Assembly: GCA_022823085.1 (NCBI GenBank)
Contig: JAJDXV010000057.1
Location: 19,891-83,890, forward strand
Length of the DNA: 64,000 nt
Direction: 5' to 3'
From: Candidatus Poribacteria bacterium
Lineage (GTDB): Bacteria > Poribacteria > WGA-4E > WGA-3G
Shown: positions 14,179 through 54,243 of the stretch, in pieces
Numbering within the stretch: the stretch's first letter is position 1
Layout: each line of letters starts with the position of its first letter
Program-made: the position numbers and the translations under genes
Notes under the pieces: model-generated
What the model saw: only the letters and a program-made list of their open reading frames with translations
Told to the model about the DNA's origin: nothing
The model's database searches: none

Positions 14179-14222
14179 ACTGCGGGTTATGTCTTGCACT
14201 AATTGCCAAGTTTTGTTAAAAT
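14179..14222 (+). promoter_or_regulatory. Sigma70-like promoter (TTGCAC-17nt-TAAAAT), 43 nt upstream of the PLD-SNF2 gene; duplicated at 26451-26495
   Basis: -35 TTGCAC (14194-14199), 17-nt spacer, -10 TAAAAT (14217-14222). A 44-bp block is near-identical to the one upstream of the DprA/SLOG-like gene. Confidence 0.5.
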
Positions 14223-14264
14223 ACAGGAACTACATTCAAACAGAGAGAAACGGACTATCACTAA

Positions 14265-17200
14265 ATGCCCCGTATTTTTGATAACATTGACCAATCACTC
14301 CTCCCCGCACTTCAACAAACACTCGAAAACGCTACACACGCAGATTTCTGCGTCGGCTATTTCAATCTCCGCGGCTGGCGAGGACTTGCCTCTTATGTTG
14401 AAAATTGGGACGGTGGCGAAGGCGAATGCTGCCGACTGCTCGTCGGCATGCAACGCTTACCCGAAGAAGAACTCCGAGAAACGATGCGGATTGCTAAAGA
14501 CGGTGGTATTGATAACCAGACAGCACTCTGTCTCAAACGGAGATTGGCAGAGGAGTTCCGCGAGCAGTTGACCATAGGCGTACCGACACGCCAAGATGAA
14601 ATAGGATTGCGTCAATTAGCGCGCCAACTTCGCGAAGAGAAGGTCCAGGTAAAACTCTTTCTTCGACACACGCTCCACGCAAAACTTTATCTGATTTATC
14701 GCGCTGACCTGATTACACCCACCGTAGGTTACCTCGGCAGTAGTAATCTAACGGTCTCCGGACTTTCACAACAGGGAGAGCTCAACGTTGATGTCGTTGA
14801 CGCAGACTCCTGTGAGAAGTTAGAGGACTGGTTTGAAAACCGTTGGAACGACCGGTGGTGCATCGATATTTCCAAAGAATTGGCAGAAATTATTGAGCAG
14901 AGTTGGGCGCGTGAGGAACTCATTCCGCCCTATCACATCTACGTGAAAATGGCGTATCATCTGTCGCAGGAAGCACGCGCAGGTTTGACTGAATTTCGGA
15001 TTCCACGCGAATTTGAGAACAAACTGTTTGAATTTCAAACCGCCGCCGTGAAAATTGCAGCGCATCACCTCAACAGACGCGGCGGTGTGCTCATAGGCGA
15101 TGTCGTCGGACTCGGTAAGACACTCATGGGAACGGCACTTGCACGGATACAAGAAGACGATTACGACCTCGAAACTTTGATTATCTGCCCGAAAAACCTT
15201 GTGAACATGTGGGAAGATTATCGTGAGGAATATCGCCTGCGCGGGCGGGTGCTCTCCATCAGCCAAGTGATCAATACTTTACCCGACCTCCGTCGCTATC
15301 GGCTCGTTATGATTGACGAAAGCCATAACCTCAGAAATCGTGAAGGCAAACGCTACCAAGCCATTCAGGAATATATCCACGAAAATGAGAGCAAAGTTAT
15401 CCTCCTCTCCGCAACGCCTTACAACAAAACCTATCTTGACCTCTCTAATCAACTCCGATTGTTCGTTGATGAAACCGAAGACCTCGGCATCCGTCCGGAG
15501 CAATACATCAAATCGTTAGGTGGTGTCATCGAATTTAATAGCAAACATCAGAGCGGTATCCGCACACTTCAAGCGTTTGAACACAGCGAGTATATTGACG
15601 ATTGGCGTGAACTGATGCGCCGCTATCTCGTGCGCCGAACGCGCAGCTTCATCATGGACAACTACGCTGAAACGGATCCCGAAACAAAACGGAAGTTCCT
15701 TCTGTTTTCAGACGGCACACCTTCCTACTTCCCGACACGTGTCCCGAAAACGATTACGTTCACAATTGATGATAAAGACCCGGACGACTCTTATGCGCAG
15801 CTATATTCGCCTTCTGTTGTGAACGTTATCAGCAGTCTGAAACTCGCTCGATACGGACTCGCAAATTATATTGTGGACACACCATCAGAACCACCAACGG
15901 AAGCAGAACAGCAGCAATTACAAGACCTGTCCCGCGGTGGACAACGCCTGATGGGGTTTTGCCGGACGAACCTTTTCAAACGGCTCGAAAGCAGTGGACA
16001 GGCGTTCATCCAATCCGTCGATCGCCATATCCTACGCAACTATATCTTTCTCCATGCGATTGAAAACGACGCACCGCTACCGATCGGATCGCAAAACGCT
16101 GAGATGCTCGACTCTCGGCTTGAAGACAGAGATACCGAAGATGCCACCCTTATCTTAGGCGTTTCCGGTGATGCCGATGACACGCAGATAGATGACACGG
16201 ATTCAGAGACAAGCACATACACACCCGATGCCTATAAACAACGTGCCGCCGAAATCTACGGACGCTACACAACGAAATATAAAAGTCGGTTTAGCTGGCT
16301 CTGTCCGAACCTCTTTCATCCGATGCTTCACAAGGATCTCACCGAAGACGCGATTGCACTCACTAAAGTCTTACAACAGGACGGTACGTGGGAGCCCGAA
16401 AAAGACGAAAAACTCAACGCACTTGAGACACTCTTAACCGAGACCCACCGGGAAGATAAGGTCTTGGTCTTCACGCAATTTGCGGATACCGTGAAATACC
16501 TAACGGATGCTCTCTCAGAACGCGGCATGACACATATCGCCGATGCAACCGGCGACTCAGCAGACCCTACCGCTTTAGCACACCGATTCAGTCCTGTCAG
16601 CAACGATAAACGGGACAGAATCAATTCAGAAGACGAGCTGCGCGTACTCATCAGTACGGATGTCCTCAGTGAAGGTCAAAATTTGCAAGATTGCGCAATC
16701 GTCGTCAACTATGATCTGCCATGGGCAATCATAAGGTTAGTCCAACGTGCAGGCAGAGTTGACCGGATTGGACAAATGGCAAAAGACATCTTGTGTTATT
16801 CGTTCCTACCTGCTGAAGGTGTGGAGCGTATTATCAACTTGCGCGGGCGCGTTCGTGCGCGTCTCCGGCAGAACGCTGAGGTTGTCGGTACGGATGAAGC
16901 CTTTTTTGAAGATGACGGTGAGGAAGGCAATGAGAGATTTGTTGATCTCTATAACGAAAGAGCAGGCTTACTTGACGATGCACAAGATAACGATGTGGAT
17001 CTCGCCTCTCACACCTACCAAATTTGGAAAAACGCCGTTACGCAGGATCCAAAATTAGAAAAAATTGTGCCTGCACTCCCGTCCGTTGTCTATTCAACGC
17101 AACCGCACACGCCAACCGATACCGAACCTGAGGGCGCGCTCGTCTATATCCGAACAGGACACGAAAACGACGCTTTGGCGTGGATAGCTCGAAACGGCGA

Positions 17201-17654
17201 AAGCGTAACGGAATCGCAGTTTGCAATCCTCCAAGCTGCGGCGTGTGAACCTGACACGGAGGCACTCCCACCGCTTGAAGCACATCACAACCTTGTGGAA
17301 GCAGCCGCAAAGTTAATCCTCTCTGAGGAGCGTTCCGTCGGCGGGCAGCTCGGACGACCCACCGGCGCACGGTTCCGTACTTATGAACGCCTAAAGGATT
17401 ATGCCTCAGAGGTAGAAGGGACGCTCTATAGCACGCCAGCACTTAAGCAGGTCATTGAAGCCATCTATCGCTATCCGCTGCGACAAGCAGCCACCGACAC
17501 CCTCAATCGCCAACTCCGTAGCGGTATTTCCAACGCCGACCTTGCTGCGTTAGTCATTGAACGGTGGGAGACAGAACGACTCTGTATCATTGAACAGGAG
17601 AGGCAAACACAAGAACCGCAGATCGTCTGCTCACTTGGACTTCGCACAACGTAA
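14265..17654 (+). CDS. Fusion of a PLD-family (HKD) nuclease domain and an SNF2/SF2 helicase
   Basis: N-terminus has 'HAKLYLIYRAD...GSSNLTVSG' (HKD-like motif with GSxN). Helicase motifs: I 'GDVVGLGKTLMG', II 'MIDESHNLRN', III 'LLSATPYNK', helicase-C 'LISTDVLSEGQNLQ', VI 'QRAGRVDRIGQ'. 1129 aa. Confidence 0.85.
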   Translation: MPRIFDNIDQSLLPALQQTLENATHADFCVGYFNLRGWRGLASYVENWDGGEGECCRLLVGMQRLPEEELRETMRIAKDGGIDNQTALCLKRRLAEEFREQLTIGVPTRQDEIGLRQLARQLREEKVQVKLFLRHTLHAKLYLIYRADLITPTVGYLGSSNLTVSGLSQQGELNVDVVDADSCEKLEDWFENRWNDRWCIDISKELAEIIEQSWAREELIPPYHIYVKMAYHLSQEARAGLTEFRIPREFENKLFEFQTAAVKIAAHHLNRRGGVLIGDVVGLGKTLMGTALARIQEDDYDLETLIICPKNLVNMWEDYREEYRLRGRVLSISQVINTLPDLRRYRLVMIDESHNLRNREGKRYQAIQEYIHENESKVILLSATPYNKTYLDLSNQLRLFVDETEDLGIRPEQYIKSLGGVIEFNSKHQSGIRTLQAFEHSEYIDDWRELMRRYLVRRTRSFIMDNYAETDPETKRKFLLFSDGTPSYFPTRVPKTITFTIDDKDPDDSYAQLYSPSVVNVISSLKLARYGLANYIVDTPSEPPTEAEQQQLQDLSRGGQRLMGFCRTNLFKRLESSGQAFIQSVDRHILRNYIFLHAIENDAPLPIGSQNAEMLDSRLEDRDTEDATLILGVSGDADDTQIDDTDSETSTYTPDAYKQRAAEIYGRYTTKYKSRFSWLCPNLFHPMLHKDLTEDAIALTKVLQQDGTWEPEKDEKLNALETLLTETHREDKVLVFTQFADTVKYLTDALSERGMTHIADATGDSADPTALAHRFSPVSNDKRDRINSEDELRVLISTDVLSEGQNLQDCAIVVNYDLPWAIIRLVQRAGRVDRIGQMAKDILCYSFLPAEGVERIINLRGRVRARLRQNAEVVGTDEAFFEDDGEEGNERFVDLYNERAGLLDDAQDNDVDLASHTYQIWKNAVTQDPKLEKIVPALPSVVYSTQPHTPTDTEPEGALVYIRTGHENDALAWIARNGESVTESQFAILQAAACEPDTEALPPLEAHHNLVEAAAKLILSEERSVGGQLGRPTGARFRTYERLKDYASEVEGTLYSTPALKQVIEAIYRYPLRQAATDTLNRQLRSGISNADLAALVIERWETERLCIIEQERQTQEPQIVCSLGLRTT

Positions 17655-17735
17655 CACTTGAAAAAATCTTGAACTTTACTGATACATCGTGTATAATTCA
17701 CCTAAACCTAATATCTTACTACACGGAGATTCCAA

Positions 17736-18065
17736 ATGAAAAAGCACGAAATTGTCGCCGGACACCACGTGAACGGTCGATTAATTGTCAAATCCATTGT
17801 GCCGCCAAATTCACTTGACTGGATCGAAAACCTGGAAACAGAAGAGTTCGTTGAATTTTTCGAGGAATTGCTCAAACAACTATCACAAATCTCAGAAGGA
17901 AAGAAAGACGCTGCAACACTCACAATTTTTCTCTCTGAATGGCGTGAAACCGCTCTAATCAACACAGAACCGGATGTCTTGTCAGATATTGCTGAGGCGG
18001 AGCGAGAATTGGACGCTGGTGGCGGAAAACCGTGGCCCCAAATCAAGAAGGAGATTGGGCTGTGA
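17736..18065 (+). CDS. Small hypothetical protein between the nuclease-helicase and the methyltransferase
   Basis: 109 aa with RBS 'GGAGA'. Acidic C-terminus 'AEAERELDAGGGKPWPQIKKEIGL' is reminiscent of antitoxin C-termini. No firm family assignment. Confidence 0.4.
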   Translation: MKKHEIVAGHHVNGRLIVKSIVPPNSLDWIENLETEEFVEFFEELLKQLSQISEGKKDAATLTIFLSEWRETALINTEPDVLSDIAEAERELDAGGGKPWPQIKKEIGL

Positions 18066-18137
18066 ACCGTCAGCCATACACCCTGGAGCCGCTGCCGCGA
18101 AAAGTCGAAAACTTCATCAAACTTATAGGAACCCTCA

Positions 18138-20738
18138 ATGTTGAACGAGCAAAATACACGCCAATATCTCAAAGAATCCGAATTTGAAGACCTCTTTACG
18201 CAAGAACTCGGTTGGGACCATCACAACGACCCCCTCAACATCACAGTAGACGAAACCACATATCAACTCACCGCAATCGCCCAAAAACGCGGAATGGTCG
18301 TCTTTGAATGTCCTGCAGAAGTTTTCCCCCCGGATAAGGGGGGCAGGGGGATTACGCGCATCCCTGATTACGCCACCCGACGCAAGATCCAAAAACAAGT
18401 TGCAAAATCTGTTCACGAACATTTTATCATCTACACCGACCCTGAGAAAACGACAGACATTTGGCAGTGGGTCAAACGCGAGCAAGGCAAACCCGACGCA
18501 TGCCGTGAACACCGCTATAACCGTGCCGAACAGTCCGGCGATTCTCTGATTCAAAAACTACAAACCATCGCCTTTACTTTTCAAGAGGAAGAGGACCTTT
18601 CACTTATTGACGTAACCGGACGCGTTGGGACTGCCTTTTACGCTGAACGAGTTACCAAGAAATTCTATGACCGTTTCAAGAAAGAGCATGACGCATTCCT
18701 TAAATTCCTCAGTGGTATTCCAGATGAAGAGATGCAAAAGTGGTACGTCTCTGTGATGCTCAACCGTCTGATGTTCATCTATTTTATCCAAAAGAAAAAT
18801 TTCCTTGATAACGACATAGACTATCTATGTACCAAACTGACTGAGAGTCAAGCGAATAGCACCAACCGGTACTACCGAGACTTCCTCTGTCCGCTCTTTT
18901 TTGAGGGGTTTGCGAAACCGGAAAACGAGCGGAGCAGAGAGATGAAACGCCTGCTCGGTAAAATCCCTTACCTCAACGGTGGTATCTTCCAACAACACCA
19001 ACTTGAGACGCTTCACGGCGAAAACATTGACATCCCTGATAAAGCATTTGAACAGATTTTTAACTTCTTTGAGCAATACGACTGGCACCTTGATGACCGT
19101 CCCCTACGCAACGACAACGAGATTAATCCTGATGTTCTCGGTTATATCTTCGAGAAATACATCAACCAGAAGCAGATGGGTGCGTACTACACCAAAGAGG
19201 ACATCACCGAGTACATCAGCAAAAACACGATAATTCCGTTCCTTTTTGACAAGGCAAAAAAAGCGTGCAAAATAGCGTTTGAAGGCGAGGCATCCGTCTG
19301 GAACTTGCTACAAGAAGACCCTGACCGCTACATCTATGATTCCGTCAAAAACGGAATCTACGATACTGATGGGGTAAAAAAAAATCTTCCATCAGAAATT
19401 GCTATCGGAATTGATGATGTTTCCAAGCGTACCGATTGGAACACACTCGCGGACCCCGATTATGCTTTACCAACAGAAATCTGGCGGGAGACCGTCGCAC
19501 GTCGGCAGCGTTATGAAACCGTCCGATCCAAACTCGCCAACGGAGAGGTCCGCGACATCAACGATCTGATTACCTACAACCTTGACATCCGCCAATTCGC
19601 ACAAGATGTTATCGAAAATTGTGAGGGCCCCGAACTGCTCCGCGCCTTCTGGAAAGCCATCACCGAAGTAACAATCTTGGATCCGACGTGTGGCTCCGGG
19701 GCGTTCCTCTTTGCTGCGCTCAACATCCTCGAACCACTTTACGAAGCATGCCTTGATCGGATGCAAGTTTTCCTTGATGAGACGGGAACGGTTTCCTCCC
19801 TGATAAGGGGGGCAGGGGGGTTAGAGGATACTCCTAAAAAACCGAACTCCCGTAGATACAACGACTTTCGCGAACTCCTTGATCGCATTGATGAACATCC
19901 CAACCGCAAATATTTTACCCTCAAATCCATCATTATCAACAATCTCTACGGCGTAGACATCATGGACGAGGCAATCGAAATCTGCAAGCTGCGCCTCTTC
20001 CTCAAAATGGTGGCGCAACTTGAAGACGTGAAACGGATTGAACCACTACCGGACATCGACTTTAACATCCAAGCAGGCAATACCCTCGTCGGTTATGCCA
20101 CTTATGATGCGGTGGAAAAACCGGAGAGACGCAGGCTTGATTTTGAAAATGCAATGAAGGGTATTAGAGAAAAAGCTGAGGATGTGAAGATTCTATTTCA
20201 GGAGTTTCGCAGGCAGCAGACAACATTAGGCGGTGCCGTGACATATGCGGACAAAAAGAATTTACAAGATAGACTTCGGGAATTAGAAGATGAGCTCAAC
20301 TTATATCTCGCTGAAGAATACGGCGTTGATTCGAACAAACAATCTGATTACGAAAACTGGCTAAATTCACATAAACCTTTTCATTGGTTCATTGCATTTT
20401 ACGATATTCTTGAAGACGGTGGATTTAATGTCATTATCGGCAATCCGCCGTATGTGGAGTATAGTGCGGTGAAGGATGAGTACACGATTAGAGGTTATAA
20501 AACAGAAAGTTGCGGTAACCTATACGCATTTGTGTTTGAAAGAGGCTTCCATCTTCTTCAGCGCAATGGTTGGAAATCAATGATAGTTCCACACTCAGTG
20601 TACTGTACCGATAGAATGGAATCCATCCAGAATCTATTTCATTGTTCTAAGCGAGTGGGGTGGGTTCAAACATATAGCATCCGTCCGGCAAAATTGTTTG
20701 TCGGAGCCGAACAACGGTTAGCGATTTATATTCTTTAG
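18138..20738 (+). CDS. Gamma-class N6-adenine DNA methyltransferase (Eco57I / Type IIG / PglX-like), truncated at codon 866 by a MITE insertion
   Basis: Motif I 'ILDPTCGSGAFLFAA'; motif IV 'GNPPYVEY'. The ORF terminates at a TAG created at the MITE boundary (20736-20738). The continuation is in the same frame at 20857..21599. Confidence 0.85.
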   Translation: MLNEQNTRQYLKESEFEDLFTQELGWDHHNDPLNITVDETTYQLTAIAQKRGMVVFECPAEVFPPDKGGRGITRIPDYATRRKIQKQVAKSVHEHFIIYTDPEKTTDIWQWVKREQGKPDACREHRYNRAEQSGDSLIQKLQTIAFTFQEEEDLSLIDVTGRVGTAFYAERVTKKFYDRFKKEHDAFLKFLSGIPDEEMQKWYVSVMLNRLMFIYFIQKKNFLDNDIDYLCTKLTESQANSTNRYYRDFLCPLFFEGFAKPENERSREMKRLLGKIPYLNGGIFQQHQLETLHGENIDIPDKAFEQIFNFFEQYDWHLDDRPLRNDNEINPDVLGYIFEKYINQKQMGAYYTKEDITEYISKNTIIPFLFDKAKKACKIAFEGEASVWNLLQEDPDRYIYDSVKNGIYDTDGVKKNLPSEIAIGIDDVSKRTDWNTLADPDYALPTEIWRETVARRQRYETVRSKLANGEVRDINDLITYNLDIRQFAQDVIENCEGPELLRAFWKAITEVTILDPTCGSGAFLFAALNILEPLYEACLDRMQVFLDETGTVSSLIRGAGGLEDTPKKPNSRRYNDFRELLDRIDEHPNRKYFTLKSIIINNLYGVDIMDEAIEICKLRLFLKMVAQLEDVKRIEPLPDIDFNIQAGNTLVGYATYDAVEKPERRRLDFENAMKGIREKAEDVKILFQEFRRQQTTLGGAVTYADKKNLQDRLRELEDELNLYLAEEYGVDSNKQSDYENWLNSHKPFHWFIAFYDILEDGGFNVIIGNPPYVEYSAVKDEYTIRGYKTESCGNLYAFVFERGFHLLQRNGWKSMIVPHSVYCTDRMESIQNLFHCSKRVGWVQTYSIRPAKLFVGAEQRLAIYIL

Positions 20739-20856
20739 GACTTACGCATATCGCTCTTTTGTACCACAATCTGTTAGATTGTGACGCAAAAACGCTGTGT
20801 TTTCAGAAGAATCTCATCTAACAGAGCCACCTATAGCCAAAAGTGCGTAAGTCCTG
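20736..20856. mobile_element. 121-bp MITE copy 1 with 13-bp terminal inverted repeats and 5-bp target-site duplication TTCTT, inserted in the methyltransferase gene
   Basis: Ends TAGGACTTACGCA...TGCGTAAGTCCTG. Direct repeats TTCTT at 20731-20735 and 20857-20861. Internal palindrome CACAATCTGTTAGATTGTG. About 85% identical to the copy at 49592-49713. Confidence 0.85.
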
Positions 20857-21599
20857 TTCTTCAACAAGGTTCAAAGCCGTCTGATATTTTATATGCTTCT
20901 CGCTATCACAGATGGCATAAACAGTTTCGCTCTCATCTCTTTGCAGTTACGGAACATGCAGATGTTACGCAGATGTCGTTTAAAAACTCGGTCACCAAAA
21001 TATACAGTAACGTTGAACAAAGCCTATGGAAGAAATTATCTCAATTCTCAGTTTTAGGTAACTACCTCATTAGAAGCAGAACTCCTTACACAGTACATTT
21101 CCATAATGCACCGCGTTACTGGATTCGGGCAATGGACTTCGCACCTTACTTCTGGAACGAGCGAGATGGGGAGAAAATATCAACTCAGGTCAAGCCCCTA
21201 TACTTAACAGCAGAATTGGATGCGACCGTAGTCGTAGCAGCTTTGAATAGTTCACTCTTTTATTGGTGGTATGTTATTCTCTCTGATTGTCGCCATTTGA
21301 ATCTACGCGAAATTAGAGGTTTTTGCATCGGAATTGATGAAATGGAGGCGAAGATAAAGCAAAGTCTTTCTCAAATTTCTGCTGACTTGATGGCGGATTT
21401 AAAACACCACGCGCACCGTAAGGAAACAAGTTACAAAACTACTGGCAAAGTAGTCTATGACGAATTTTTCCCACGTCACTCCAAATCCATCATAGACAAG
21501 ATTGACCGCGTGCTTGCCCAACACTACGGCTTCACAGACGAGGAATTAGATTTCATCATCAACTATGACATCAAGTATCGGATGAGCTTGGGAAATTGA
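20857..21599 (+). pseudogene. Displaced C-terminal (putative target-recognition) part of the methyltransferase
   Basis: Removing the MITE and one TSD copy joins '...LAIYIL' directly to 'QQGSKPSDILYASRYHRWHKQ...' in frame, giving about 1120 aa in total. The track ORF 20781..21599 starts inside the MITE. Confidence 0.75.
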
Positions 21600-21902
21600 C
21601 GCACCCATACGTGTGGATTTAGGGAAGATGCTCATCGTAGGTTGGGCTGAACGGACGGGATCGAAACATGGGCATCTAAAAGAAACAGTCTACAGACGAC
21701 ACGCCTCCTGTTGCTGCAGGGCACCGAGTGAAACCCAACACTATACCAAAAACGTTGAATACGCGAAAGTTGAAAATCCGCGTCATCCGATAAATCCGCG
21801 ATTCAGACGAAACACCCCTAACACACAGCCCCTAATAGTCTTCCCTTCTTCAGTTCTCGAAATTTGCTTGATAACCCTACCCAAACGTGATAAACTATAC
21901 GC

Positions 21903-22043
21903 ATGACACAAGCAGAAACACAACCGCCGCAAGTCGTCTTCTATCGCGAGCGGAGTGGGCGTGTTCCTATCCAAAACTGGCTTGATGGGTTGCCATTTGA
22001 ACAAAATCCTGCCCTTTACACGCAGGAGATCGATTATGCATGA
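21903..22043 (+). pseudogene. Truncated HigB/Gp49-like (RelE/ParE superfamily) toxin remnant (46 aa)
   Basis: 'MTQAETQPPQVVFYRERSGRVPIQNWLDGLP...' matches the characteristic N-terminus ('VVFYRTASGREPVREWLKSL') of Gp49/HigB-like toxins but stops after 46 aa. Its stop overlaps the start of the next gene (ATGCATGA). Confidence 0.4.
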
Positions 22044-22866
22044 TAAAAGAACCACGACAGATGCAGTAGAAATTATGCACCAACTCTTTATTAAGGGGGA
22101 TCCTGAAAAACTGGCTCGGCTGGAGGAGGAAGCGGTTAATTTTGAGATTTCGCTACATGTCTATGATTTACGTACCTCCGGCGGTCAAACACAAGAAGAA
22201 TTCGGAGAGATAGCCGGTGTGGATCCCCGCGTTATTGATGACCTTGAGGTAGCCGACTATGAAGGCGATTCGCTCGCCATGCTCGCGCGTATCGAAAAAG
22301 CGACATTGCCACATATTTCCGCCCTCAATTTTCCTGCAGAGGGAGTTTACCCGAACGCACTTATCGGCACAACCCTAACTGGGCTTAAACTCAGACGACT
22401 TCGATACTTACCTCACAGACAAGGCACCGACGATCCAACGGCACCCTTTACAACTCTCAGATTTAACCTGAAAACGCTGCAAGGTAGGCAGTATACGGCA
22501 AGTGAGCTCGCATCCTGGCTCCATGTGCTCAAAATGAACCGGCAGGAGTTGAACATGTTCGCGCTCGCTAAGTTGACAACCTGGAGCCATCTCGCTGGGG
22601 AGTTGCTTGTTAAACTTTCGGGCGATCCGATCGAATACATCCGGGCGGTGGATACGCATACGCAACTCATCCGCGCAGCCATATACTATCTTGAAGAAGG
22701 GGAACACACAGCGTTCAAACAGTGGCAACAAGATATCGGTCCGCAGGAAGAAAAACGTTACATCGTAGAATTGGAAGGATCCCTCCACGATAGAGCCTTT
22801 GTGGAACTCCCAGACACAGAGTGGTTGACGCAGACACTTATCACATTTATAAAGAGAGACTTTTAG
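22036..22866 (+). CDS. HTH (XRE/HigA-like) antitoxin-type regulator with a long C-terminal extension
   Basis: HTH region 'LRTSGGQTQEEFGEIAGVDPRVIDDLE'. The track ORF begins at 21955; the start at 22036 is preferred because of the overlap with the toxin remnant. Confidence 0.5.
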   Translation: MHDKRTTTDAVEIMHQLFIKGDPEKLARLEEEAVNFEISLHVYDLRTSGGQTQEEFGEIAGVDPRVIDDLEVADYEGDSLAMLARIEKATLPHISALNFPAEGVYPNALIGTTLTGLKLRRLRYLPHRQGTDDPTAPFTTLRFNLKTLQGRQYTASELASWLHVLKMNRQELNMFALAKLTTWSHLAGELLVKLSGDPIEYIRAVDTHTQLIRAAIYYLEEGEHTAFKQWQQDIGPQEEKRYIVELEGSLHDRAFVELPDTEWLTQTLITFIKRDF

Positions 22867-22997
22867 ATCAATACCTTCGCTAAACAATTGACAACAAGTT
22901 AGCCGAAATCAGAACCCGGAATTCGTCATCTGTCACAAAAATAGCAAAATTCAGCGCACGAACAACCACCGTCCCAATTAGATAACCGAAAAAGACT

Positions 22998-24380
22998 ATG
23001 GAAATCACCGATCTCAAACAACGCATCGCACAACGCGAAAATACCACAACCGAATTCAAAGAGAACTTCGATCAAGAAGTAATTGAGACCGCTGCTGCGT
23101 TTGCCAATACCGATGGCGGTACGATTCTTATTGGCGTATCTGATAGCGGAGAAATCAGAGGTATTACCATCGGCAAAGAGACGCTAAGAGATGTATCAAA
23201 CCGGATTTCGCAAGCGACTGAACCGCGGTCGGTCCTGGACGTTGCGTCAGTTGACGTAGAAGGAAAGTCATTGCTGTTGGTGCATATCTCGGAAGCTTCC
23301 ATAAAACCTGTTTCTGTTAGGGGAAGATGCTATAAGAGAATCGGAAATAGCAACCGCGTCATGTCCCCACAAGAGATTGCACAGATGCACCTCAACGCTA
23401 CCGGACAAACTTGGGATCAACTCTTAGTTACACGTGCTGGACTTGATGATATAGATGAGAAAAAAGTCGAATGGTATCTGACCCGTCGAGAGACAATCCG
23501 GAATGTGTCTATACCGCAAGATATGAACATGGCAGCGTTTTTGAAGAACATTAAGGGTATCAGCGATGACGGAACACCAACCCACGCGGGGCTTCTTTTT
23601 TTCAGTAAGCACTCGCTACTAAGATTCTTCCACAACGCGCAATTACGAGTCGTCAGATTCAAAGGAACATCTGTCACCCATCCGGTCCTTGATCGGCTTG
23701 ATTGCGGCGAGACGCTCTGGGAAAACGTCGAGACCGCCGAGGAATTTATAAGAAAAAACATCCGATTGCTCAGTTTTCGGACCTCAAGGCGTTTCCAAAG
23801 AGACGATAAGTTTGAATACCCGCTTAATGCACTACGGGAGGCAATAATCAACGCCTTGATTCACCGCAATTACCAAGAAACTGCGGATGTCCGGGTCTTT
23901 ATATTTGACAACCGCGTTGAGGTTATCAGTCCCGGCACTTTTCCAGAAGGTGTTAGTCCAGATGAACCGGCTCACAAACCGGTAAACCCTACTTTGAGTC
24001 AATTCATGTTTGATGTCGGTTTCATTGAACGGTACGGTGCCGGTATCAGGATGATGCAAAGGTTATGCAGGGAATGGGGAAACAAAGCACCGCGTTATGA
24101 ATTTCACCCGCTTGAAACCAAAATCATCTTTGATTCCCCGATTCAAGAGAGCACTTATATTGAAATTGACGACATTTCAGAGCAGTTGAACGAGCGTCAA
24201 AAGAATGCGTTTTTCTACGTGCAAAGAAACGGGCAAATCACAAGAAAGGAATACATAGAGATTAATCATGTCTCAGTCCGGATCGCCTATGAGGAACTAA
24301 GAGATCTAACAGACAAAGGATTATTACATGTAACAGGCAAGGGTAGAGGAACCAAGTACGTACAAAAGGTAAACGATTAG
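22998..24380 (+). CDS. AlbA_2 (Schlafen-like 'divergent AAA') + HATPase_c_4/wHTH domain protein
   Basis: N-terminus 'TTEFKENFDQEVIETAAAFANTDGGTILIGVSDSGEIRGI' is typical of the AlbA_2 domain. C-terminal 'ALREAIINALIHRNY' is the HATPase_c_4-type motif. Confidence 0.7.
   Translation: MEITDLKQRIAQRENTTTEFKENFDQEVIETAAAFANTDGGTILIGVSDSGEIRGITIGKETLRDVSNRISQATEPRSVLDVASVDVEGKSLLLVHISEASIKPVSVRGRCYKRIGNSNRVMSPQEIAQMHLNATGQTWDQLLVTRAGLDDIDEKKVEWYLTRRETIRNVSIPQDMNMAAFLKNIKGISDDGTPTHAGLLFFSKHSLLRFFHNAQLRVVRFKGTSVTHPVLDRLDCGETLWENVETAEEFIRKNIRLLSFRTSRRFQRDDKFEYPLNALREAIINALIHRNYQETADVRVFIFDNRVEVISPGTFPEGVSPDEPAHKPVNPTLSQFMFDVGFIERYGAGIRMMQRLCREWGNKAPRYEFHPLETKIIFDSPIQESTYIEIDDISEQLNERQKNAFFYVQRNGQITRKEYIEINHVSVRIAYEELRDLTDKGLLHVTGKGRGTKYVQKVND
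23217..23251. repeat. 35-bp direct repeat, copy 2 (inside the AlbA_2-like CDS, encoding 'TEPRSVLDVASV')
   Basis: 33/35 identical to 14091-14125. Confidence 0.7.
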
Positions 24381-24426
24381 GTAAACGATTAGGTAAGCAA
24401 TTCTAAAAGATCAGCGGGAGAAACAC

Positions 24427-25731
24427 ATGCCAAGACAAAAGGGTGAAGGTATCACCAAGATAGCCGTGAAGGGTTTCAAGTCCATCGCGGAGGAATGCGA
24501 AATCGACATTCGTCCGCTGACGATTCTTTCCGGTGCAAATAGTTCCGGGAAATCCAGCATCATGCAACCGCTCCTGATGCTGAAACAGACGCTGGAGGCA
24601 CCGTATGATCCGGGGCCGTTGTTGATTGATGGACCGAATGTTCAGTTTACTGAGGTGGCACAATTTTTATCCCAGTTAACCGGCGGAAAAAAAGCAGATT
24701 GTTTTCAGATACGAATTGATACTTGTGATTCTGATTTTGCTTACTCAGTGGAAACAACTTTCAAAAAAGGGAAGACCGGGCTTGAAATTGCCAAAATGAC
24801 AACTGAAGTGAGACAAGCTGCTCAACCATTACCTTTCAAACATTATACCCTATATCCTGAAATGTCGGCTGAAGAAATCAGCGCACTGGGTAGCCAAGGT
24901 CCAATGCGTAGTGATTTTAAGGCGGTGAAACGTTTACGTTGTTTTTTGGGTTTTGAATCTCAAGCAAGTGATCATCTCTTTAATGTTACCTACAACCCTG
25001 TTGAGGCTTACATTTTTGACAGTATCCATCTCCCCGGATTACGAGGCAATCCAGTACGCATCTACAAATTTACCAGCACCGGTCCCTTATACCCCGGCAT
25101 ATTTGAACATTATGCTGCAAGCATTATTCACGAATGGCAGGAAACAACAGATGAACGCCTGAAAACGTTAGTTGATGCCCTTCATACACTTGGATTGACA
25201 AGACAAGTTAGCACAAAAAAAATCGGTGATGTCGGCATTGAAATTCAGGTCGGTCGCCTTCTACACGACAACGCTGGCGAAACGGACCTGGTCAATATAG
25301 CTGATGTAGGCTTTGGAGTATCTCAAGTTTTGCCCGCTATAGTAGCATTGATTGTAGCGGAACCGGGACAATTGGTTTATCTCGAACAACCCGAGCTGCA
25401 CCTCCATCCGCGCGCCCAAGTGGCATTGGCGAGAGTATTAGCAGACGCGGCGAAACGGGGTGTCCGAGTTGTCGTCGAGACGCACAGTTCGCTACTGCTT
25501 TTGGGAGTTCAAACGCTTGTTGCCGAAGGAGACCTCCCGCCGGAATTAGTTAAGCTTCACTGGTTTTCACGGAACAAAGATGGGGTGACTGAAGTTGATA
25601 GCGTGGACTTAGACGAAGCAGGGACTTATGGGGATTGGTCCATGGATTTTGATGATGTCAGTCTTAGCGTGCAGAGTCGTTTTCTTGATGCCGTAGACAA
25701 TGTTAGATTTGGTGAAAAGGAGGCTTCGTGA
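24427..25731 (+). CDS. ABC-type (AAA_21/DUF3696-like) ATPase
   Basis: Walker A 'GANSSGKSS'; Walker B / D-loop region 'LVYLEQPELHLHPRAQVALARVLA...VVVETHSS'. 434 aa. Confidence 0.7.
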   Translation: MPRQKGEGITKIAVKGFKSIAEECEIDIRPLTILSGANSSGKSSIMQPLLMLKQTLEAPYDPGPLLIDGPNVQFTEVAQFLSQLTGGKKADCFQIRIDTCDSDFAYSVETTFKKGKTGLEIAKMTTEVRQAAQPLPFKHYTLYPEMSAEEISALGSQGPMRSDFKAVKRLRCFLGFESQASDHLFNVTYNPVEAYIFDSIHLPGLRGNPVRIYKFTSTGPLYPGIFEHYAASIIHEWQETTDERLKTLVDALHTLGLTRQVSTKKIGDVGIEIQVGRLLHDNAGETDLVNIADVGFGVSQVLPAIVALIVAEPGQLVYLEQPELHLHPRAQVALARVLADAAKRGVRVVVETHSSLLLLGVQTLVAEGDLPPELVKLHWFSRNKDGVTEVDSVDLDEAGTYGDWSMDFDDVSLSVQSRFLDAVDNVRFGEKEAS

Positions 25732-26261
25732 GATCAAGAAATTCAAAACGATTAGTAATTGACACAGATGTTGCCCAAGCGTCTGGTGATGAGGCAGCAA
25801 CCGATCCACGGGCTATCAATTGTCGTGATTTCCTAAAGGAAGTAAGGACTCAAGATCATAGGGTGGTGATGACGAGAGAAATCAGCGACGAGTGGAAAAG
25901 ACATCAATCTCACTTTGCCTTTGAGTGGCGGGTGTCAATGGATGCGCGTAGAAAAATAGACCGCATCAATCCACCAGAATATGCAGAGATCCAAGCCAAA
26001 GTCACAAACACAACAAGCGATGAAGATGAGATTGAAGCTCTACAAAAAGATTTTCACCTTCTCCAAGCAGCACTCACAACCGATCAAACGGTTATTTCAC
26101 TGGACGAAACCGTCCGAGGACTTTTTGCACATGCGTCCCAACAGGTCGGCGAAATCCAGCACATCATCTGGGTCAACCCAGATAGAACAGCAGAAGAACA
26201 ACCCATCGCTTGGCTCCAAAACGGCGCACTACCTGAAGCACATCGTCAACTTTCCGCTTGA
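25728..26261 (+). CDS. Small partner protein of the ATPase (177 aa; possible PIN-like/nuclease fold)
   Basis: GTG start overlapping the ATPase stop (GTGA). Strong RBS 'AAAAGGAGG' 5 nt upstream. N-terminal 'RLVIDTDVAQ' resembles the first strand and acidic residues of PIN-like domains. Confidence 0.5.
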   Translation: MRSRNSKRLVIDTDVAQASGDEAATDPRAINCRDFLKEVRTQDHRVVMTREISDEWKRHQSHFAFEWRVSMDARRKIDRINPPEYAEIQAKVTNTTSDEDEIEALQKDFHLLQAALTTDQTVISLDETVRGLFAHASQQVGEIQHIIWVNPDRTAEEQPIAWLQNGALPEAHRQLSA

Positions 26262-26624: not shown

Positions 26625-27314
26625 GTGATACCGCCAATTCAACGCATCACACAAACAGACCCGATTTATCCAAAAAAACTAAAGGATTTCCTAAAAACAG
26701 AAGCTCCAGAAACAATTTGGGCACGCGGAAATATCGACTTGTTACCGGGAATAGATACCGCTTTCAACGGAAACCTCTGGGCACTCTTCTGTTCCAAAAA
26801 ATGTCCCGGGGAGCTGATATTGAAGACGCACGACTTGGCGCAGAGGTTTAAGGAGAGAGGTATCCCAACGATCGGAGGCTATCATTCGCCGATTGAACAG
26901 GAATGTCTGCGTGTCTTACTGCGTGGTGTACAACCGATTCTCTTATGTCCGGCACGGAGCATCGAAAATATGCGACTGAAATCGGTATGGAGAGACGCAT
27001 TTGCCAAGGAACGGTTATTAATTTTATCTCCGTTTGAAAGTCGCTACAATCGACAGACAGAGGCGTTGGCGAACCGACGCAACGCTTTCGTTGCAGCACT
27101 CGCAGACAAAATCTATATCGCACACGCTGCTGAAGGTGGTAAGACATTAAAATTCGCAGAGAAGGTGATAGCCGAAGGCAAATCCGTTTTTACCTTTGAG
27201 ACACCAGCAAACGAAGCACTCTTTCAACTTGGCGCAGAACGGATGGAACCGTCCCTATATGTCGAGAAAAAAGCAAACGCTACTACGGTAACAGCACAAT
27301 TCGGAGGAACATAA
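26625..27314 (+). CDS. DprA/Smf-like (SLOG superfamily, Rossmann fold) protein
   Basis: GTG start with RBS 'AAGGA'. Layout 'LFCSKKCPGELILKTHDLAQ...IGGYHSPIEQECL...LILSPFESRYNRQTEALANRRNAFVAALADKIYIAHAAEGGKT' parallels the DprA Rossmann domain. Confidence 0.55.
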   Translation: MIPPIQRITQTDPIYPKKLKDFLKTEAPETIWARGNIDLLPGIDTAFNGNLWALFCSKKCPGELILKTHDLAQRFKERGIPTIGGYHSPIEQECLRVLLRGVQPILLCPARSIENMRLKSVWRDAFAKERLLILSPFESRYNRQTEALANRRNAFVAALADKIYIAHAAEGGKTLKFAEKVIAEGKSVFTFETPANEALFQLGAERMEPSLYVEKKANATTVTAQFGGT

Positions 27315-49591: not shown

Positions 49592-49713
49592 TAGGACTTA
49601 CGCATGCTCCTCTTTATGTACCACAATCTGTTAGATTGTGTTCCAAAAACGCTGTGTTTTCCGAAAAATTTCATCTAACAAAACGAACTATAGTCAAAAT
49701 TGCGTAAGTCCTA
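49592..49713. mobile_element. 122-bp MITE copy 2 with TIRs TAGGACTTACGCA/TGCGTAAGTCCTA and TSD TCTAA
   Basis: TSD at 49587-49591 and 49714-49718; the first TSD copy overlaps the stop codon of the 48599..49591 gene. Same internal palindrome as copy 1. Confidence 0.85.
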
Positions 49714-51895: not shown

Positions 51896-51937
51896 GGTTC
51901 CACAGATTCCTAAACCTAACTTCGCCCTGGGTTTCGC

Positions 51938-52888: not shown

Positions 52889-53005
52889 AATTCTTAAATT
52901 CCTGCTATCTATTCCATTGAAAAGAAAATACGAAAAACGCCGGTTTTCATATTATCTTCCGCACCTGCGGCGCGGTGAAATTGGAACACACCTCTGTTTT
53001 TCGGA

Positions 53006-54166: not shown

Positions 54167-54243
54167 TTTGTCTTACTCCCTTCGTTTTCTGGCAAATCTT
54201 GCGTGCGAACAATCCGAATCAAGATATTGAAATGATAATCATT

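What the first reader, a model, noticed from the sequence alone, without database searches (positions are those of the whole stretch)
14265..21599. PLD-nuclease/SNF2-helicase fusion next to a large gamma-class N6-adenine methyltransferase: candidate unclassified translocating restriction module
Seen in sequence: the 1129-aa protein (14265-17654) starts with an HKD-type phospholipase-D nuclease signature ('HAKLYLIY...GSSNLT') and continues into a full SNF2/SF2 motor (motifs I 'GLGKT', II 'DESH', III 'SATP', VI 'QRAGRVDRIGQ'). After a 109-aa ORF comes a methyltransferase of roughly 1120 aa (18138-20738 plus 20857-21599) with motif I 'DPTCGSGAF', catalytic 'NPPY', and a separate C-terminal (probably target-recognition) region. 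Established knowledge: PLD nucleases (Nuc, BfiI) cut DNA. DISARM class 1 combines an SNF2 helicase (DrmD), an N6-adenine methyltransferase (DrmMI) and a PLD protein (DrmC), but also needs DrmA/DrmB (DUF1998), which are not in this window. Type III and Type ISP enzymes couple a helicase-nuclease with a Mod-like methyltransferase. Inference: this is a two- or three-gene ATP-dependent restriction-modification-like system with the nuclease fused to the translocase. It does not fit canonical DISARM, BREX, Type I, III or ISP layouts and may be an undescribed variant. The methyltransferase is currently split by a MITE, so the locus may be inactive, or the nuclease-helicase may be tolerated without its methyltransferase.
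Basis: partly seen in the sequence, partly recalled or inferred. Interest (0 to 1): 0.8.

Follow-up and report, generated by a model that had tools for sequence, protein, structure and literature searches.

The report
PLD-helicase nuclease with partner methyltransferase
This is a real, widespread but functionally untested bacterial restriction-modification-like gene pair (a DNA-cutting motor protein plus a large adenine methyltransferase, often with a small DprA-like third gene), and the copy in this window has been broken by a tiny transposon.

Summary
ORF 14265-17654 encodes an HKD/PLD nuclease fused to a complete SNF2 motor. ORFs 18138-20738 and 20781-21599 are one roughly 1111-aa Eco57I/MmeI/PglX-type N6-adenine methyltransferase with a variable C-terminal recognition domain. 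A 121-bp MITE splits it (13-nt inverted ends, 5-bp TTCTT duplication). A sister strain has the empty site, and related copies lie elsewhere in the window and in another Poribacteria locus.

The pair is conserved. In 59 of 62 genomes across many phyla the methyltransferase lies just downstream on the same strand. No DrmA/DrmB, DUF499/DUF3780 or PglZ is present, so it is not DISARM, MANTIS or BREX.

New findings:
- A DprA/PsyrA-like gene (26625-27314) is a frequent third member. Variable defence cargo is inserted between it and the methyltransferase.
- The 109-aa ORF is accessory, not core.
- The Synechocystis PCC 6803 orthologue is Slr6050 (M.Ssp6803IV). It is tentatively assigned GA(m6A)GGC, and its knockout never segregated.
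- A sister strain has deleted the nuclease-helicase instead.

Closest characterised relative: MANTIS/Gao_RL (MtsD effector).

Verdict: a new variant of a known kind. This copy is probably inactive.

The parts
14265..17654 (+). R component: HKD/PLD nuclease fused to an SNF2-type SF2 motor (1129 aa), apparently intact
   Evidence: Pfam PLDc_2, RE_NgoFVII, SNF2-rel_dom, ResIII, Helicase_C. PADLOC 'HKD+Snf2' 3e-52 and DrmD 1e-33. Differs at only 2 of 387 positions that are >=97% conserved in 72 relatives.
14676..14753 (+). Single HKD motif (HAKLYLIY...GSSNLT, aa 138-163). One motif per chain implies that a dimer forms the active site.
   Evidence: Invariant in alignments A1 and A2. Dimer inference by analogy with Nuc, BfiI, SauUSI and MtsD.
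15108..16775 (+). SNF2 motor core: motif I GLGKT (15108-15122), II DESH (15315-15326), III SATP (15408-15419), VI QRAGRVDRIGQ (16743-16775)
   Evidence: Pfam SNF2-rel_dom and Helicase_C. Invariant columns.
17736..18065 (+). Accessory 109-aa ORF inserted between R and M; not a core component
   Evidence: Found in only about 6 Poribacteria loci. Its N-terminal 74 aa are 49% identical to a 252-aa RNA_pol_A_CTD protein in L082. No family hits.
18138..20735 (+). M component, N-terminal 866 aa: conserved N-terminal domain of unknown function plus a gamma-class N6-adenine methyltransferase domain (motif X GAYYT, motif I DPTCGSGAF 19680-19706, motif IV NPPY 20442-20453)
   Evidence: Pfam Eco57I 2e-25, MmeI_Mtase, DUF7814. 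PADLOC PDLC03628 1e-279. Motifs verified.
20736..20856 (.). 121-bp MITE (ends TAGGACTTACGCA / TGCGTAAGTCCTG) that brings two in-frame TAG stops into the methyltransferase
   Evidence: Inverted repeat. Empty site in L082. Other copies with 5-bp duplications. Strong hairpin, z = -6.65.
20857..20861 (.). Second copy of the 5-bp target-site duplication TTCTT (first copy at 20731-20735)
20862..21599 (+). M component, C-terminal about 245 aa: variable target-recognition domain plus a conserved C-terminal tail
   Evidence: PADLOC PDLC03628 positions 860-1095. No detectable nucleotide similarity to L001 over 20543-21454, while the flanks are 79-83% identical. Lowest conservation along the protein. TaqI/CamA/PglX/MmeI-type fold matches.
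21613..26261 (+). Variable cargo embedded between M and the DprA-like gene: orf97, orf303, Schlafen-AlbA_2/HATPase_c_4 (22998-24380), AAA_15/AAA_21 ATPase (24427-25731) and its 177-aa partner (25728-26261)
   Evidence: NsnB 7e-52, HEC-03B. The same kinds of cargo occur at this position in other loci.
26625..27314 (+). DprA/PsyrA-like (SLOG-type) protein, 229 aa: frequent third member of the module
   Evidence: Pfam DNA_processg_A 7e-12. PADLOC PsyrA 2e-20. Downstream on the same strand in 38 of 57 loci with >=9 kb of downstream sequence, and abutting the methyltransferase stop in 8 loci. Reciprocal test: 11 of 18.

Best explanation
The locus is a two-gene, ATP-dependent restriction-modification-like defence module, often three-gene.

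- M is a large monomeric gamma-class N6-adenine methyltransferase of the Eco57I/MmeI/PglX lineage. Its hypervariable C-terminal domain reads a short DNA sequence, probably asymmetric, and it methylates host copies of that sequence.
- R is an HKD/PLD nuclease fused to an SNF2 translocase. It has no evident sequence-recognition domain and only one HKD motif. It most likely works as a dimer with one shared PLD active site, is directed to unmethylated sites by M, uses ATP to move on or remodel DNA, and cuts it.
- A DprA/PsyrA-like protein encoded downstream in about two thirds of close relatives probably modulates the helicase-nuclease. The precedent is PsyrA, the DprA-like partner of a RecQ-family helicase in the PsyrTA pair.
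- The M-to-DprA interval, and to a lesser degree the R-to-M interval, act as landing sites for other small defence genes.

In this window a 121-bp MITE separates the methyltransferase catalytic domain from its recognition domain. Both modification and targeted restriction are therefore probably lost. That would explain why an apparently intact nuclease gene is tolerated.

Shown: the domain content, gene linkage, variability of the recognition domain, the MITE insertion and the sister-strain deletion allele. Inferred: restriction activity, dependence of R on M, the dimer, and the role of the DprA-like protein.
For: - Domains and invariant catalytic motifs.
- Linkage: M lies downstream of R on the same strand in 59 of 62 loci from Poribacteria, Desulfobacterota, Nitrospirota, Acidobacteriota, Verrucomicrobiota, Chloroflexota, Bacillota, Planctomycetota and others. 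Start and stop are nearly abutting in many. The pair is also on plasmids of cultured strains.
- Variable recognition domain between close relatives.
- Fold matches of the M model to CamA, PglX/BrxX, M.TaqI, MmeI and BpuSI.
- The orthologue Slr6050 (50% identity over its full length) is tentatively assigned the asymmetric motif GA(m6A)GGC, and its knockout never segregated (PMC6105098). That is what an active partner nuclease would produce. The PLD-SNF2 orthologue sits just upstream.
- In MANTIS a homologous PLD-SF2 effector, MtsD, is an ATPase-dependent dimeric nuclease that needs the methyltransferase for targeting. An mtsC knockout is not toxic.
- DprA-like linkage.
- Cargo typical of genes embedded in Type I, BREX and Hma operons.
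- MITE and empty site.
Against: - No biochemical or phage-challenge data exist for this family.
- The Synechocystis result, if it does reflect self-restriction, would mean R can kill without intact M. That sits uneasily with the idea that the MITE-disrupted M makes R harmless here. The Synechocystis allele was an internal replacement and its products are unknown.
- The DprA-like gene is absent near the pair in Synechocystis, Pelobacter and about one third of loci, so it is not required for methylation.
- The function of the M N-terminal domain (aa 1-175) is unresolved. It could be a second nuclease.
- Structure models were of low confidence.
- The Slr6050 motif assignment is tentative: the authors had no recombinant protein.
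Confidence: 0.7

Rival explanations
1. Two independent systems lie side by side. The large methyltransferase is a self-contained Type IIG restriction-modification enzyme with its own N-terminal nuclease. The PLD-SNF2 protein is an autonomous, SauUSI-like Type IV enzyme that attacks modified foreign DNA.
For: - The PADLOC model that M matches end to end is labelled 'Type IIG restriction enzyme-methyltransferase'.
- The M model has an alpha/beta N-terminal domain with the strand order expected of a PD-(D/E)xK-like fold.
- Hagemann et al. reported weak HSDR_N similarity in Slr6050.
- SauUSI has the same PLD + SF2 layout.
- R has about 250 unassigned C-terminal residues.
Against: - No D...(D/E)xK triad is conserved in the M N-terminal domain across 53 homologues.
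- A profile of that domain finds nothing in PDB or Pfam.
- 95% co-occurrence with abutting reading frames is not expected of unrelated neighbours.
- No DUF3427 or other reader domain was detected in R.
Confidence: 0.12
2. It is a stripped-down or partial DISARM class 1, MANTIS (BR type 2) or BREX system whose remaining components (DrmA/DrmB, DUF499/DUF3780, PglZ/BrxC) are encoded elsewhere in the genome.
For: R hits DrmD (1e-33), BrxHII and the 'HKD+Snf2' model. M hits DrmMI (4e-19) and PglX (NCBIfam BREX_1_MTaseX 2e-20).
Against: - All of these hits fall far below the family cut-offs.
- Besides R, the window has no ORF longer than 866 aa, and none of the ORFs scanned carries DUF1998, DUF499, DUF3780 or PglZ.
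- Clustering the neighbours of 82 loci found no further conserved large gene within +/-10 kb.
- The pair stands alone on small plasmids and short operons.
Confidence: 0.06
3. It is not a defence system. An epigenetic regulatory methyltransferase is paired with a RapA-like SNF2 remodeller that acts in transcription or repair, and the PLD domain is non-nucleolytic.
For: - The best PDB sequence matches of R are RapA, in the helicase C-lobe only, at E about 1e-7.
- The slr6050 mutant was described as 'essential' with no link drawn to restriction.
Against: - The HKD motif is invariant and belongs to the NgoFVII restriction-nuclease type.
- M has a hypervariable recognition domain.
- The distribution is patchy across phyla at 60-68% identity, and the pair occurs on plasmids.
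- The locus sits in a defence island with embedded defence-type cargo.
- The module is readily lost or broken between sister strains.
Confidence: 0.05

Closest known systems
MANTIS (formerly Gao_RL / Gao_29; BREX-related Type 2 system), bioRxiv 10.64898/2026.09.23.753747 and PMC12839542
   Same: - The effector has the same layout: an N-terminal single-HKD PLD nuclease followed by an SF2/SNF2-type ATPase. The catalytic His and Walker-A Lys lie at similar positions (MtsD H122/K260; here H138/K285).
- It is paired with an N6-adenine methyltransferase that supplies sequence specificity.
- The PADLOC 'HKD+Snf2' model is the best defence-library hit for R, 3e-52. That this model represents MtsD is my inference.
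   Different: - There is no DUF499 AAA+ loader (MtsA) and no DUF3780 protein (MtsB).
- The methyltransferase has NPPY and is of the Eco57I/MmeI/PglX type with its own C-terminal recognition domain; MtsC carries a DPPY motif and needs MtsA and MtsB for methylation.
- A DprA-like gene is the recurrent extra component.
- The match to the model is partial (176 bits, model positions 319-768).
DISARM class 1 (DrmA, DrmB, DrmC, DrmD, DrmMI)
   Same: It combines a PLD nuclease, an SNF2 helicase and an N6-adenine methyltransferase. R matches DrmD at 1e-33 and M matches DrmMI at 4e-19.
   Different: PLD and SNF2 are fused here into one protein. DrmA and DrmB (DUF1998) are absent from the window and from 80 related loci. 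Scores are far below the NCBIfam DrmD cut-offs (120 against 610 bits).
Type IIG/IIL enzymes and BREX PglX (Eco57I, MmeI, BpuSI, Cj0031, PglX/BrxX)
   Same: M has the same methyltransferase-plus-recognition-domain architecture (Pfam Eco57I and MmeI_Mtase; fold matches to PglX, MmeI and BpuSI). Enzymes of this class usually methylate one strand of an asymmetric site, as proposed for the orthologue M.Ssp6803IV (GAAGGC).
   Different: No conserved PD-(D/E)xK catalytic triad was found in the N-terminal domain. Cleavage is presumably delegated to a separate ATP-driven PLD-SNF2 protein. No BREX partners are present.
SauUSI (Type IV) and CglI/NgoAVII (ATP-dependent Type II)
   Same: These are characterised restriction enzymes that couple a PLD nuclease to an SF2 ATPase motor. 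The PLD domain of R matches the NgoFVII family.
   Different: SauUSI is autonomous and targets modified cytosine through a DUF3427 domain. CglI/NgoAVII split the PLD-B3 and ATPase functions into two proteins and use a C5-methyltransferase. Here the partner is an adenine methyltransferase and unmethylated DNA is the presumed target.
PsyrTA and ShosTA (DprA-like partners in toxin-antitoxin-type defence pairs)
   Same: The third gene matches PsyrA (2e-20) and weakly matches ShosA. In PsyrTA the DprA-like protein is paired with a RecQ-family helicase (table in PMC11232893).
   Different: Here the DprA-like protein is only about 210-230 aa, sits downstream of a methyltransferase, and is dispensable in many loci. 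No toxin-antitoxin behaviour has been tested.

Membership tests
DISARM class 1 | DrmA helicase and DrmB (DUF1998) core genes | tested here: not met
   No DUF1998 or DrmA/DrmB-type gene is present. Besides R, no window ORF exceeds 866 aa, and all ORFs scanned have other assignments. No conserved extra gene occurs in 82 loci.
DISARM class 1 | SNF2 helicase DrmD, PLD protein DrmC and N6-adenine methyltransferase DrmMI as separate genes | tested here: inconclusive
   Homologous domains are present (DrmD 1e-33, DrmMI 4e-19). However, PLD and SNF2 are fused, and scores are far below the NCBIfam cut-offs.
MANTIS / BR type 2 / Gao_RL | DUF499 AAA+ ATPase (MtsA) | tested here: not met
   No DUF499 hit in any ORF scanned. 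The only nearby ATPase is an AAA_15/21 cargo gene of 434 aa.
MANTIS / BR type 2 / Gao_RL | DUF3780 small protein (MtsB) | tested here: not met
   The small ORFs (109, 97, 177 and 303 aa) have no Pfam or PADLOC hits and are not conserved across loci.
MANTIS / BR type 2 / Gao_RL | HKD/PLD nuclease fused N-terminally to an SF2/SNF2 ATPase (MtsD) | tested here: met
   The architecture is identical. PADLOC 'HKD+Snf2' 3e-52, a partial match. That this model is MtsD is inferred.
Type IIG restriction-modification enzyme | Gamma-class N6-adenine methyltransferase domain with a C-terminal target-recognition domain in one chain | tested here: met
   Pfam Eco57I and MmeI_Mtase; PADLOC PDLC03628 end to end; fold matches; variable C-terminus.
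Type IIG restriction-modification enzyme | Active endonuclease domain (PD-(D/E)xK in MmeI, BpuSI and Eco57I) in the same chain | tested here: inconclusive
   The N-terminal 175 aa are conserved and predicted alpha/beta. No D/(D/E)xK triad is conserved, and there are no PDB or Pfam profile hits. The model is too weak for a domain-level fold search.
Type III restriction-modification | Res subunit (SF2 helicase with a C-terminal PD-(D/E)xK nuclease) plus a beta-class Mod methyltransferase | tested here: not met
   The nuclease is an N-terminal PLD. The motor is of the SNF2 type. The methyltransferase has the gamma-class motif order (X, I, IV) with a C-terminal recognition domain.
Type ISP restriction-modification | Single polypeptide carrying Mrr nuclease, helicase, methyltransferase and recognition domain | tested here: not met
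   There are two separate genes with a 484-nt gap here and distinct ORFs in all loci. The nuclease is PLD, not Mrr.
BREX | PglZ phosphatase and BrxC ATPase together with a PglX methyltransferase | tested here: not met
   M matches PglX only partially (72 bits against a cut-off of 500). No PglZ or BrxC is present in the window or the loci.
MITE (non-autonomous DNA transposon) | Short, non-coding, terminal inverted repeats, target-site duplication, several copies, and an empty site in a relative | tested here: met
   121 bp with 13-nt inverted ends. 5-bp duplications at three independent copies. Empty site in L082.

The most novel reading that the evidence does not exclude
This is a distinct, minimal class of translocating restriction system, present in at least 550 species. 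A PglX/MmeI-like methyltransferase, without any AAA+ loader, both marks self DNA and licenses a dimeric PLD-SNF2 motor nuclease. A DprA/PsyrA-like SLOG protein acts as a built-in regulator. The operon also serves as a docking site for other defence genes. The same reading would explain why M.Ssp6803IV (slr6050) cannot be deleted in Synechocystis PCC 6803.
Probability: 0.4. Interest if true: 0.7.

Novelty: new variant of a known kind. Interest (0 to 1): 0.58.

Why it matters
Methylation-based defences beyond the classical types (BREX, DISARM, MANTIS, Hma) are under active dissection. A central question is how a methyltransferase hands an unmodified site to a separate motor nuclease.

This family would be the simplest such arrangement: two proteins and no loader ATPase. 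It is abundant across phyla and on plasmids. It also exists in a genetically tractable model, Synechocystis PCC 6803 plasmid pSYSX. There, an unexplained 'essential' methyltransferase gives an immediate test: does deleting the neighbouring PLD-SNF2 gene rescue the knockout?

The recurrent DprA-like partner hints at a regulatory layer shared with the PsyrTA pair. For annotation, members of this family are currently labelled 'helicase-related protein' or 'NgoFVII family restriction endonuclease', and 'Eco57I domain protein' or 'Type IIG'. Those labels hide the linkage.

For this particular genome, the locus is most likely a recently inactivated system, and two different knock-out alleles exist in closely related strains.

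Tried and rejected
- AlphaFold2 on the full PLD-SNF2 protein with 41 homologues gave mean pLDDT 46. The model was too poor to use, so no fold search was run on it.
- AlphaFold2 on an intact methyltransferase homologue gave pLDDT 55.5. Only the N-terminal domain and the recognition domain were confident. The Foldseek matches have low TM-scores and support the enzyme class only.
- The alignments were shallow (at least 66% identity) because only proteins from the word-indexed search could be submitted.
- A profile of the methyltransferase N-terminal 175 aa found nothing meaningful in PDB sequences or Pfam.
- phmmer of the full methyltransferase against PDB found no hits.
- I looked for silent recognition-domain cassettes or inverted repeats downstream of the methyltransferase, as a sign of programmed inversion. 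None were found.
- The promoter and terminator scan of 13.8-28.4 kb was not above shuffled background. There are no tRNA genes or Rfam matches in the window.
- An exact-sequence look-up of the truncated 866-aa product found no contig on record.
- Literature searches for PLD+SNF2+Eco57I and for slr6047 found nothing. Searches for DprA or SLOG combined with helicase and restriction-modification terms found nothing relevant. Searches for Gao_RL and for phospholipase D + SNF2 + methyltransferase led to MANTIS and the BR systems, which are relatives rather than this system.
- I considered the 109-aa ORF as a core third gene and rejected it: it occurs in only a few Poribacteria loci.
- I considered ordinary DISARM and rejected it: DrmA and DrmB are absent.

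Full report
**Observation**

The 1129-aa ORF at 14265-17654 carries one HKD motif (HAKLYLIY...GSSNLT, aa 138-163). Pfam reports PLDc_2 (4e-10), RE_NgoFVII (2e-6), SNF2-rel_dom, ResIII, DEAD and Helicase_C (4e-17).

The ORFs 18138-20738 and 20781-21599 are in the same reading frame. They match consecutive parts of one PADLOC model, PDLC03628 'Type IIG restriction enzyme-methyltransferase': positions 3-850 at 1e-279 and 860-1095 at 5e-51. Pfam gives Eco57I (2e-25), MmeI_Mtase and DUF7814. Motif I (DPTCGSGAF) and motif IV (NPPY) are at aa 515-523 and 769-772.

**The insertion is a true MITE**

- The two halves of the methyltransferase are separated by an element with perfect 12-nt inverted ends.
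- A syntenic locus from a sister strain (L082, about 97.6% nucleotide identity) has the uninterrupted site. The window aligns to it up to 20735 and again from 20857, with five L082 bases shared between the two alignments.
- The element is therefore 20736-20856 (121 bp), flanked by a TTCTT duplication. Removing 20736-20861 restores a 1111-aa ORF.
- A second copy lies at 49592-49713 in the window and a third in Poribacteria locus L006. Each has its own 5-bp duplication, TCTAA and AATAA.
- The element folds into a long hairpin (z = -6.65). It brings two in-frame TAG codons into the gene.

**Source organism and spread of the family**

The closest relatives of both proteins come from Candidatus Poribacteria genomes, so the window is most likely from a sponge-associated poribacterium.

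The PLD-SNF2 protein has full-length relatives at 60-68% identity in many other phyla. These include Desulfobacterota, Nitrospirota, Acidobacteriota, Verrucomicrobiota, Chloroflexota, Bacillota, Planctomycetota, Latescibacterota and Pseudomonadota. Both protein searches reached the 8000-candidate limit, and every candidate scored passed E <= 1e-10. Only eight relatives were found in the viral contig collection.

**Gene linkage**

- Of 62 loci with at least 3.5 kb downstream of the PLD-SNF2 gene, 59 carry a homologue of this methyltransferase downstream on the same strand. In 33 of them it is within 150 nt.
- I clustered all ORFs from 82 loci. No conserved upstream gene and no further large conserved gene emerged. 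The other recurrent clusters are shadow ORFs inside the two big genes.
- Besides the PLD-SNF2 ORF, the window has no ORF longer than the 866-aa methyltransferase fragment. None of the ORFs scanned carries DUF1998, DUF499, DUF3780 or PglZ.
The PLD residues are intact, co-occurrence is strong, and DrmA and DrmB are absent.

**A third, unnoticed component**

The only other widely recurrent neighbour is a protein of about 210 aa. In the window it is encoded at 26625-27314.

- It matches Pfam DNA_processg_A (7e-12) and the PADLOC PsyrA model (2e-20).
- It lies downstream on the same strand in 45 of 82 loci, and in 38 of the 57 loci that have at least 9 kb of downstream sequence. In eight loci it abuts or overlaps the methyltransferase stop codon.
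- In the reverse test I anchored on this protein in metagenome contigs. Of 18 loci with at least 4.5 kb upstream, 11 carry this methyltransferase family upstream and 9 also show the PLD-SNF2 gene.
- Where the two genes are not adjacent, 0.3-5.7 kb of variable genes lie between them, nearly all on the same strand.
- Scanning 53 of these cargo proteins gave Schlafen-AlbA_2 (6), AAA_15/AAA_21 ATPases (5, matching NsnB and HEC-01A models), PIN, RhuM, MTaX1, DUF3800, HNH, YhcG/DUF1016, Fic and Macro.
- The window's own cargo is of this kind: orf97, orf303, Schlafen-AlbA_2/HATPase_c_4, an AAA_15/21 ATPase and a 177-aa partner.
- A comparable pattern is reported for Hma systems. About two thirds have defence genes inserted between hmaA, hmaB and hmaC, including an AAA_21-plus-unknown pair between hmaB and hmaC (PMC11232893).
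- The 109-aa ORF between R and M occurs in only a few Poribacteria loci. It shares its N-terminal 74 aa with an unrelated 252-aa protein of L082. It is accessory.

**The methyltransferase**

Conservation across 53 homologues is highest around motif X (EINPDVLGYIFEKYINQKxxGAYYT), motif I and motif IV. It is lowest from about aa 800 to 1075, then recovers in the last 35 residues.

Against L001, nucleotide identity is 79% up to position 20543 and 83% over the last 146 nt. Nothing is alignable in between. This is the signature of a swappable target-recognition domain.

The AlphaFold model of an intact homologue was poor overall (pLDDT 55.5) but confident in the C-terminal domain. Foldseek against PDB returned CamA, PglX/BrxX, M.TaqI, M.BseCI, MmeI and BpuSI. 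These are gamma-class adenine methyltransferases with a C-terminal recognition domain.

The N-terminal 175 aa are conserved and predicted alpha/beta. They have no conserved D...(D/E)xK triad and no profile match in PDB or Pfam. Whether this domain is a degenerate nuclease fold or a docking domain is unresolved. The 'Type IIG' label is therefore not established.

**The nuclease-helicase**

All catalytic motifs are invariant in the alignments. Across 72 relatives, the window protein departs from 387 positions that are at least 97% conserved at only two, A917T and S1033T. The gene therefore looks intact.

Its best defence-library match is the PADLOC model 'HKD+Snf2' (3e-52), followed by DrmD, a 'PLD_Helicase' model and BrxHI/BrxHII. 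NCBIfam hits to DrmD and the 'phospholipase D-like anti-phage protein' fall far below their cut-offs. The full-length structure model was unusable (pLDDT 46).

**Experimental anchors from the literature**

MANTIS:
- MANTIS was formerly called Gao_RL or Gao_29 and is classed as a BREX-related Type 2 system. It comprises a DUF499 AAA+ ATPase, a DUF3780 protein, an N6-adenine methyltransferase and MtsD.
- MtsD is a PLD nuclease fused to an SF2 ATPase. It forms a dimer with one PLD site and resembles SauUSI.
- Restriction needs the PLD histidine, the Walker A lysine and all the other components.
- An mtsC knockout is not toxic, whereas a catalytically dead MtsC is tolerated only together with a nuclease mutation (classification in PMC12839542).

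Synechocystis PCC 6803:
- Plasmid pSYSX carries a full-length orthologue of the PLD-SNF2 protein (51.5% identity).
- After an inserted small gene and a VapC gene comes a 1100-aa 'DNA methyltransferase' that is 50% identical over its whole length to the L001 methyltransferase.
- I infer that this gene is slr6050. Hagemann et al. (PMC6105098) describe slr6050 as a 1100-aa pSYSX protein with a single Eco57I Pfam hit. They named it M.Ssp6803IV and tentatively assigned it the asymmetric motif GA(m6A)GGC.
- They could not obtain a fully segregated knockout. They did not discuss the neighbouring helicase gene.
- A non-segregating methyltransferase knockout is what an active cognate nuclease would cause.

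Earlier notice of the pair:
- A CDS with phospholipase D and SNF domains next to a Cj0031-like Type IIG CDS is listed as a genomic context in a survey of programmed inversions (PMC9881135).
- I found no paper that names or tests the pair or the triplet.

**Mechanism proposed**

- M recognises a short sequence through its variable domain and methylates adenine on host DNA.
- R has one HKD motif and no evident recognition domain. It most likely acts as a dimer, is recruited or licensed by M at unmethylated sites, uses ATP and cuts.
- The DprA/PsyrA-like protein is an optional modulator of the helicase-nuclease, by analogy with the RecQ-helicase/DprA-like PsyrTA pair.
- All of these steps are inferred from homology and linkage.

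In the window, the MITE separates the catalytic domain (aa 1-866) from the recognition domain. If targeting depends on M, as in MANTIS and in Type I and Type III systems, the insertion switches off both modification and restriction. That fits with an intact R gene being tolerated.

The Synechocystis result points the other way, because there loss of M looks harmful. However, that allele was an internal replacement of unknown consequence. I flag this tension as unresolved.

**Population context**

The sister-strain allele in L082/L083 keeps the methyltransferase core and recognition domain but has lost window positions 14239-15361 and 15787-18608. Both deletions have microhomology at their junctions (CATTCA and GACG). 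Both are in frame, giving a 1109-aa chimeric ORF made of a helicase fragment fused to the methyltransferase from about aa 142.

Closely related strains therefore carry two different disabling alleles of the same module: one R-intact and M-split, the other R-deleted and M-retained.

**Classification and novelty**

The module fails the defining tests for DISARM class 1 (no DrmA/DrmB), MANTIS/BR type 2 (no DUF499 or DUF3780), BREX, Type III and Type ISP. It cannot be shown to be a true Type IIG enzyme.

It works most like MANTIS or Type III logic, using a MANTIS/SauUSI-type effector and a PglX/MmeI-type methyltransferase. I rate it a new variant of a known kind. It is real, abundant and untested, and parts of it are already indexed in PADLOC, in REBASE and, from my own knowledge, in CDD as a PLD-N-Snf2-like domain family. 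The particular copy in this window is probably non-functional.

Noticed in passing
window 49592-49713; L006 19226-19346: Further copies of the same MITE family (ends TAGGACTTACGCA...TGCGTAAGTCCTA). Each is flanked by its own 5-bp duplication (TCTAA; AATAA). The window copy lies just downstream of the 330-aa ORF that ends at 49591.
   Followed up: partly
L082 10001-13330 (= protein P0132), compared with window 14189-21599: A sister strain (97.6% nucleotide identity, same flanking genes) has two in-frame, microhomology-mediated deletions. They remove the PLD domain, most of the helicase, orf109 and the first ~141 aa of the methyltransferase. The result is a 1109-aa chimeric ORF with an intact methyltransferase core and recognition domain.
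   Followed up: yes
window 17736-18065 (+), promoter-like site at 17669-17697: The 109-aa ORF between R and M shares its first 74 aa (49% identity) with a 252-aa RNA_pol_A_CTD-domain protein found at a different position in L082. Copies also occur upstream of the PLD-SNF2 gene in L004 and L005. It looks like a small mobile or modular gene family specific to Poribacteria.
   Followed up: partly
window 24427-26261 (+); L001 6810-8644: An AAA_15/AAA_21 ATPase (PADLOC NsnB 7e-52, HEC-03B 2e-39) with an overlapping 177-aa partner that matches no family. The same pair lies upstream of the PLD-SNF2 gene in L001, so it moves as a unit within the island. It is a candidate two-gene defence system.
   Followed up: partly
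window 22998-24380 (+): A Schlafen-AlbA_2 + HATPase_c_4 protein of 460 aa. The same gene recurs between the methyltransferase and the DprA-like gene in several Poribacteria loci (L009, L010, L011, L082). It gives PADLOC hits to pAgo-associated models.
   Followed up: no
window 27314-28216 (+): A PhyH-family dioxygenase gene whose start overlaps the DprA-like stop codon. The same arrangement occurs in L001 and L082 and in about 7 Poribacteria loci, but not outside that group. Its function here is unknown.
   Followed up: no
L109, L132, L138, L159 (metagenome loci anchored on the DprA-like gene): Only the first ~60 codons of the PLD-SNF2 gene are detectable. In L132, L138 and L159 they lie about 3.4-4.2 kb upstream of the DprA-like gene, with unrelated ORFs in between (ORFs inspected in L132 and L159 only); in L109 they lie about 240 nt upstream. 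These look like remnants in which R and M were replaced while the ends of the module stayed.
   Followed up: partly
L164 (Synechocystis pSYSX 47182-47815 and 51619-54240): In Synechocystis, a small gene plus a VapC toxin gene sit between the PLD-SNF2 gene and slr6050. A DUF6527 / ThiF / E2 / multiubiquitin cluster (a ubiquitin-like conjugation defence type) lies just downstream on the other strand.
   Followed up: no
L165 13078-17103 (Nostoc punctiforme pNPUN01): The partner of the PLD-SNF2 gene here is a 1341-aa variant of the same methyltransferase family. It has NPPW instead of NPPY and a different, longer C-terminal region. It is annotated 'RNA-binding domain-containing protein'.
   Followed up: partly
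window 855-2891 (-): A 678-aa protein made almost entirely of WD40 repeats (Pfam WD40 2e-107). It is a eukaryote-like repeat protein.
   Followed up: no
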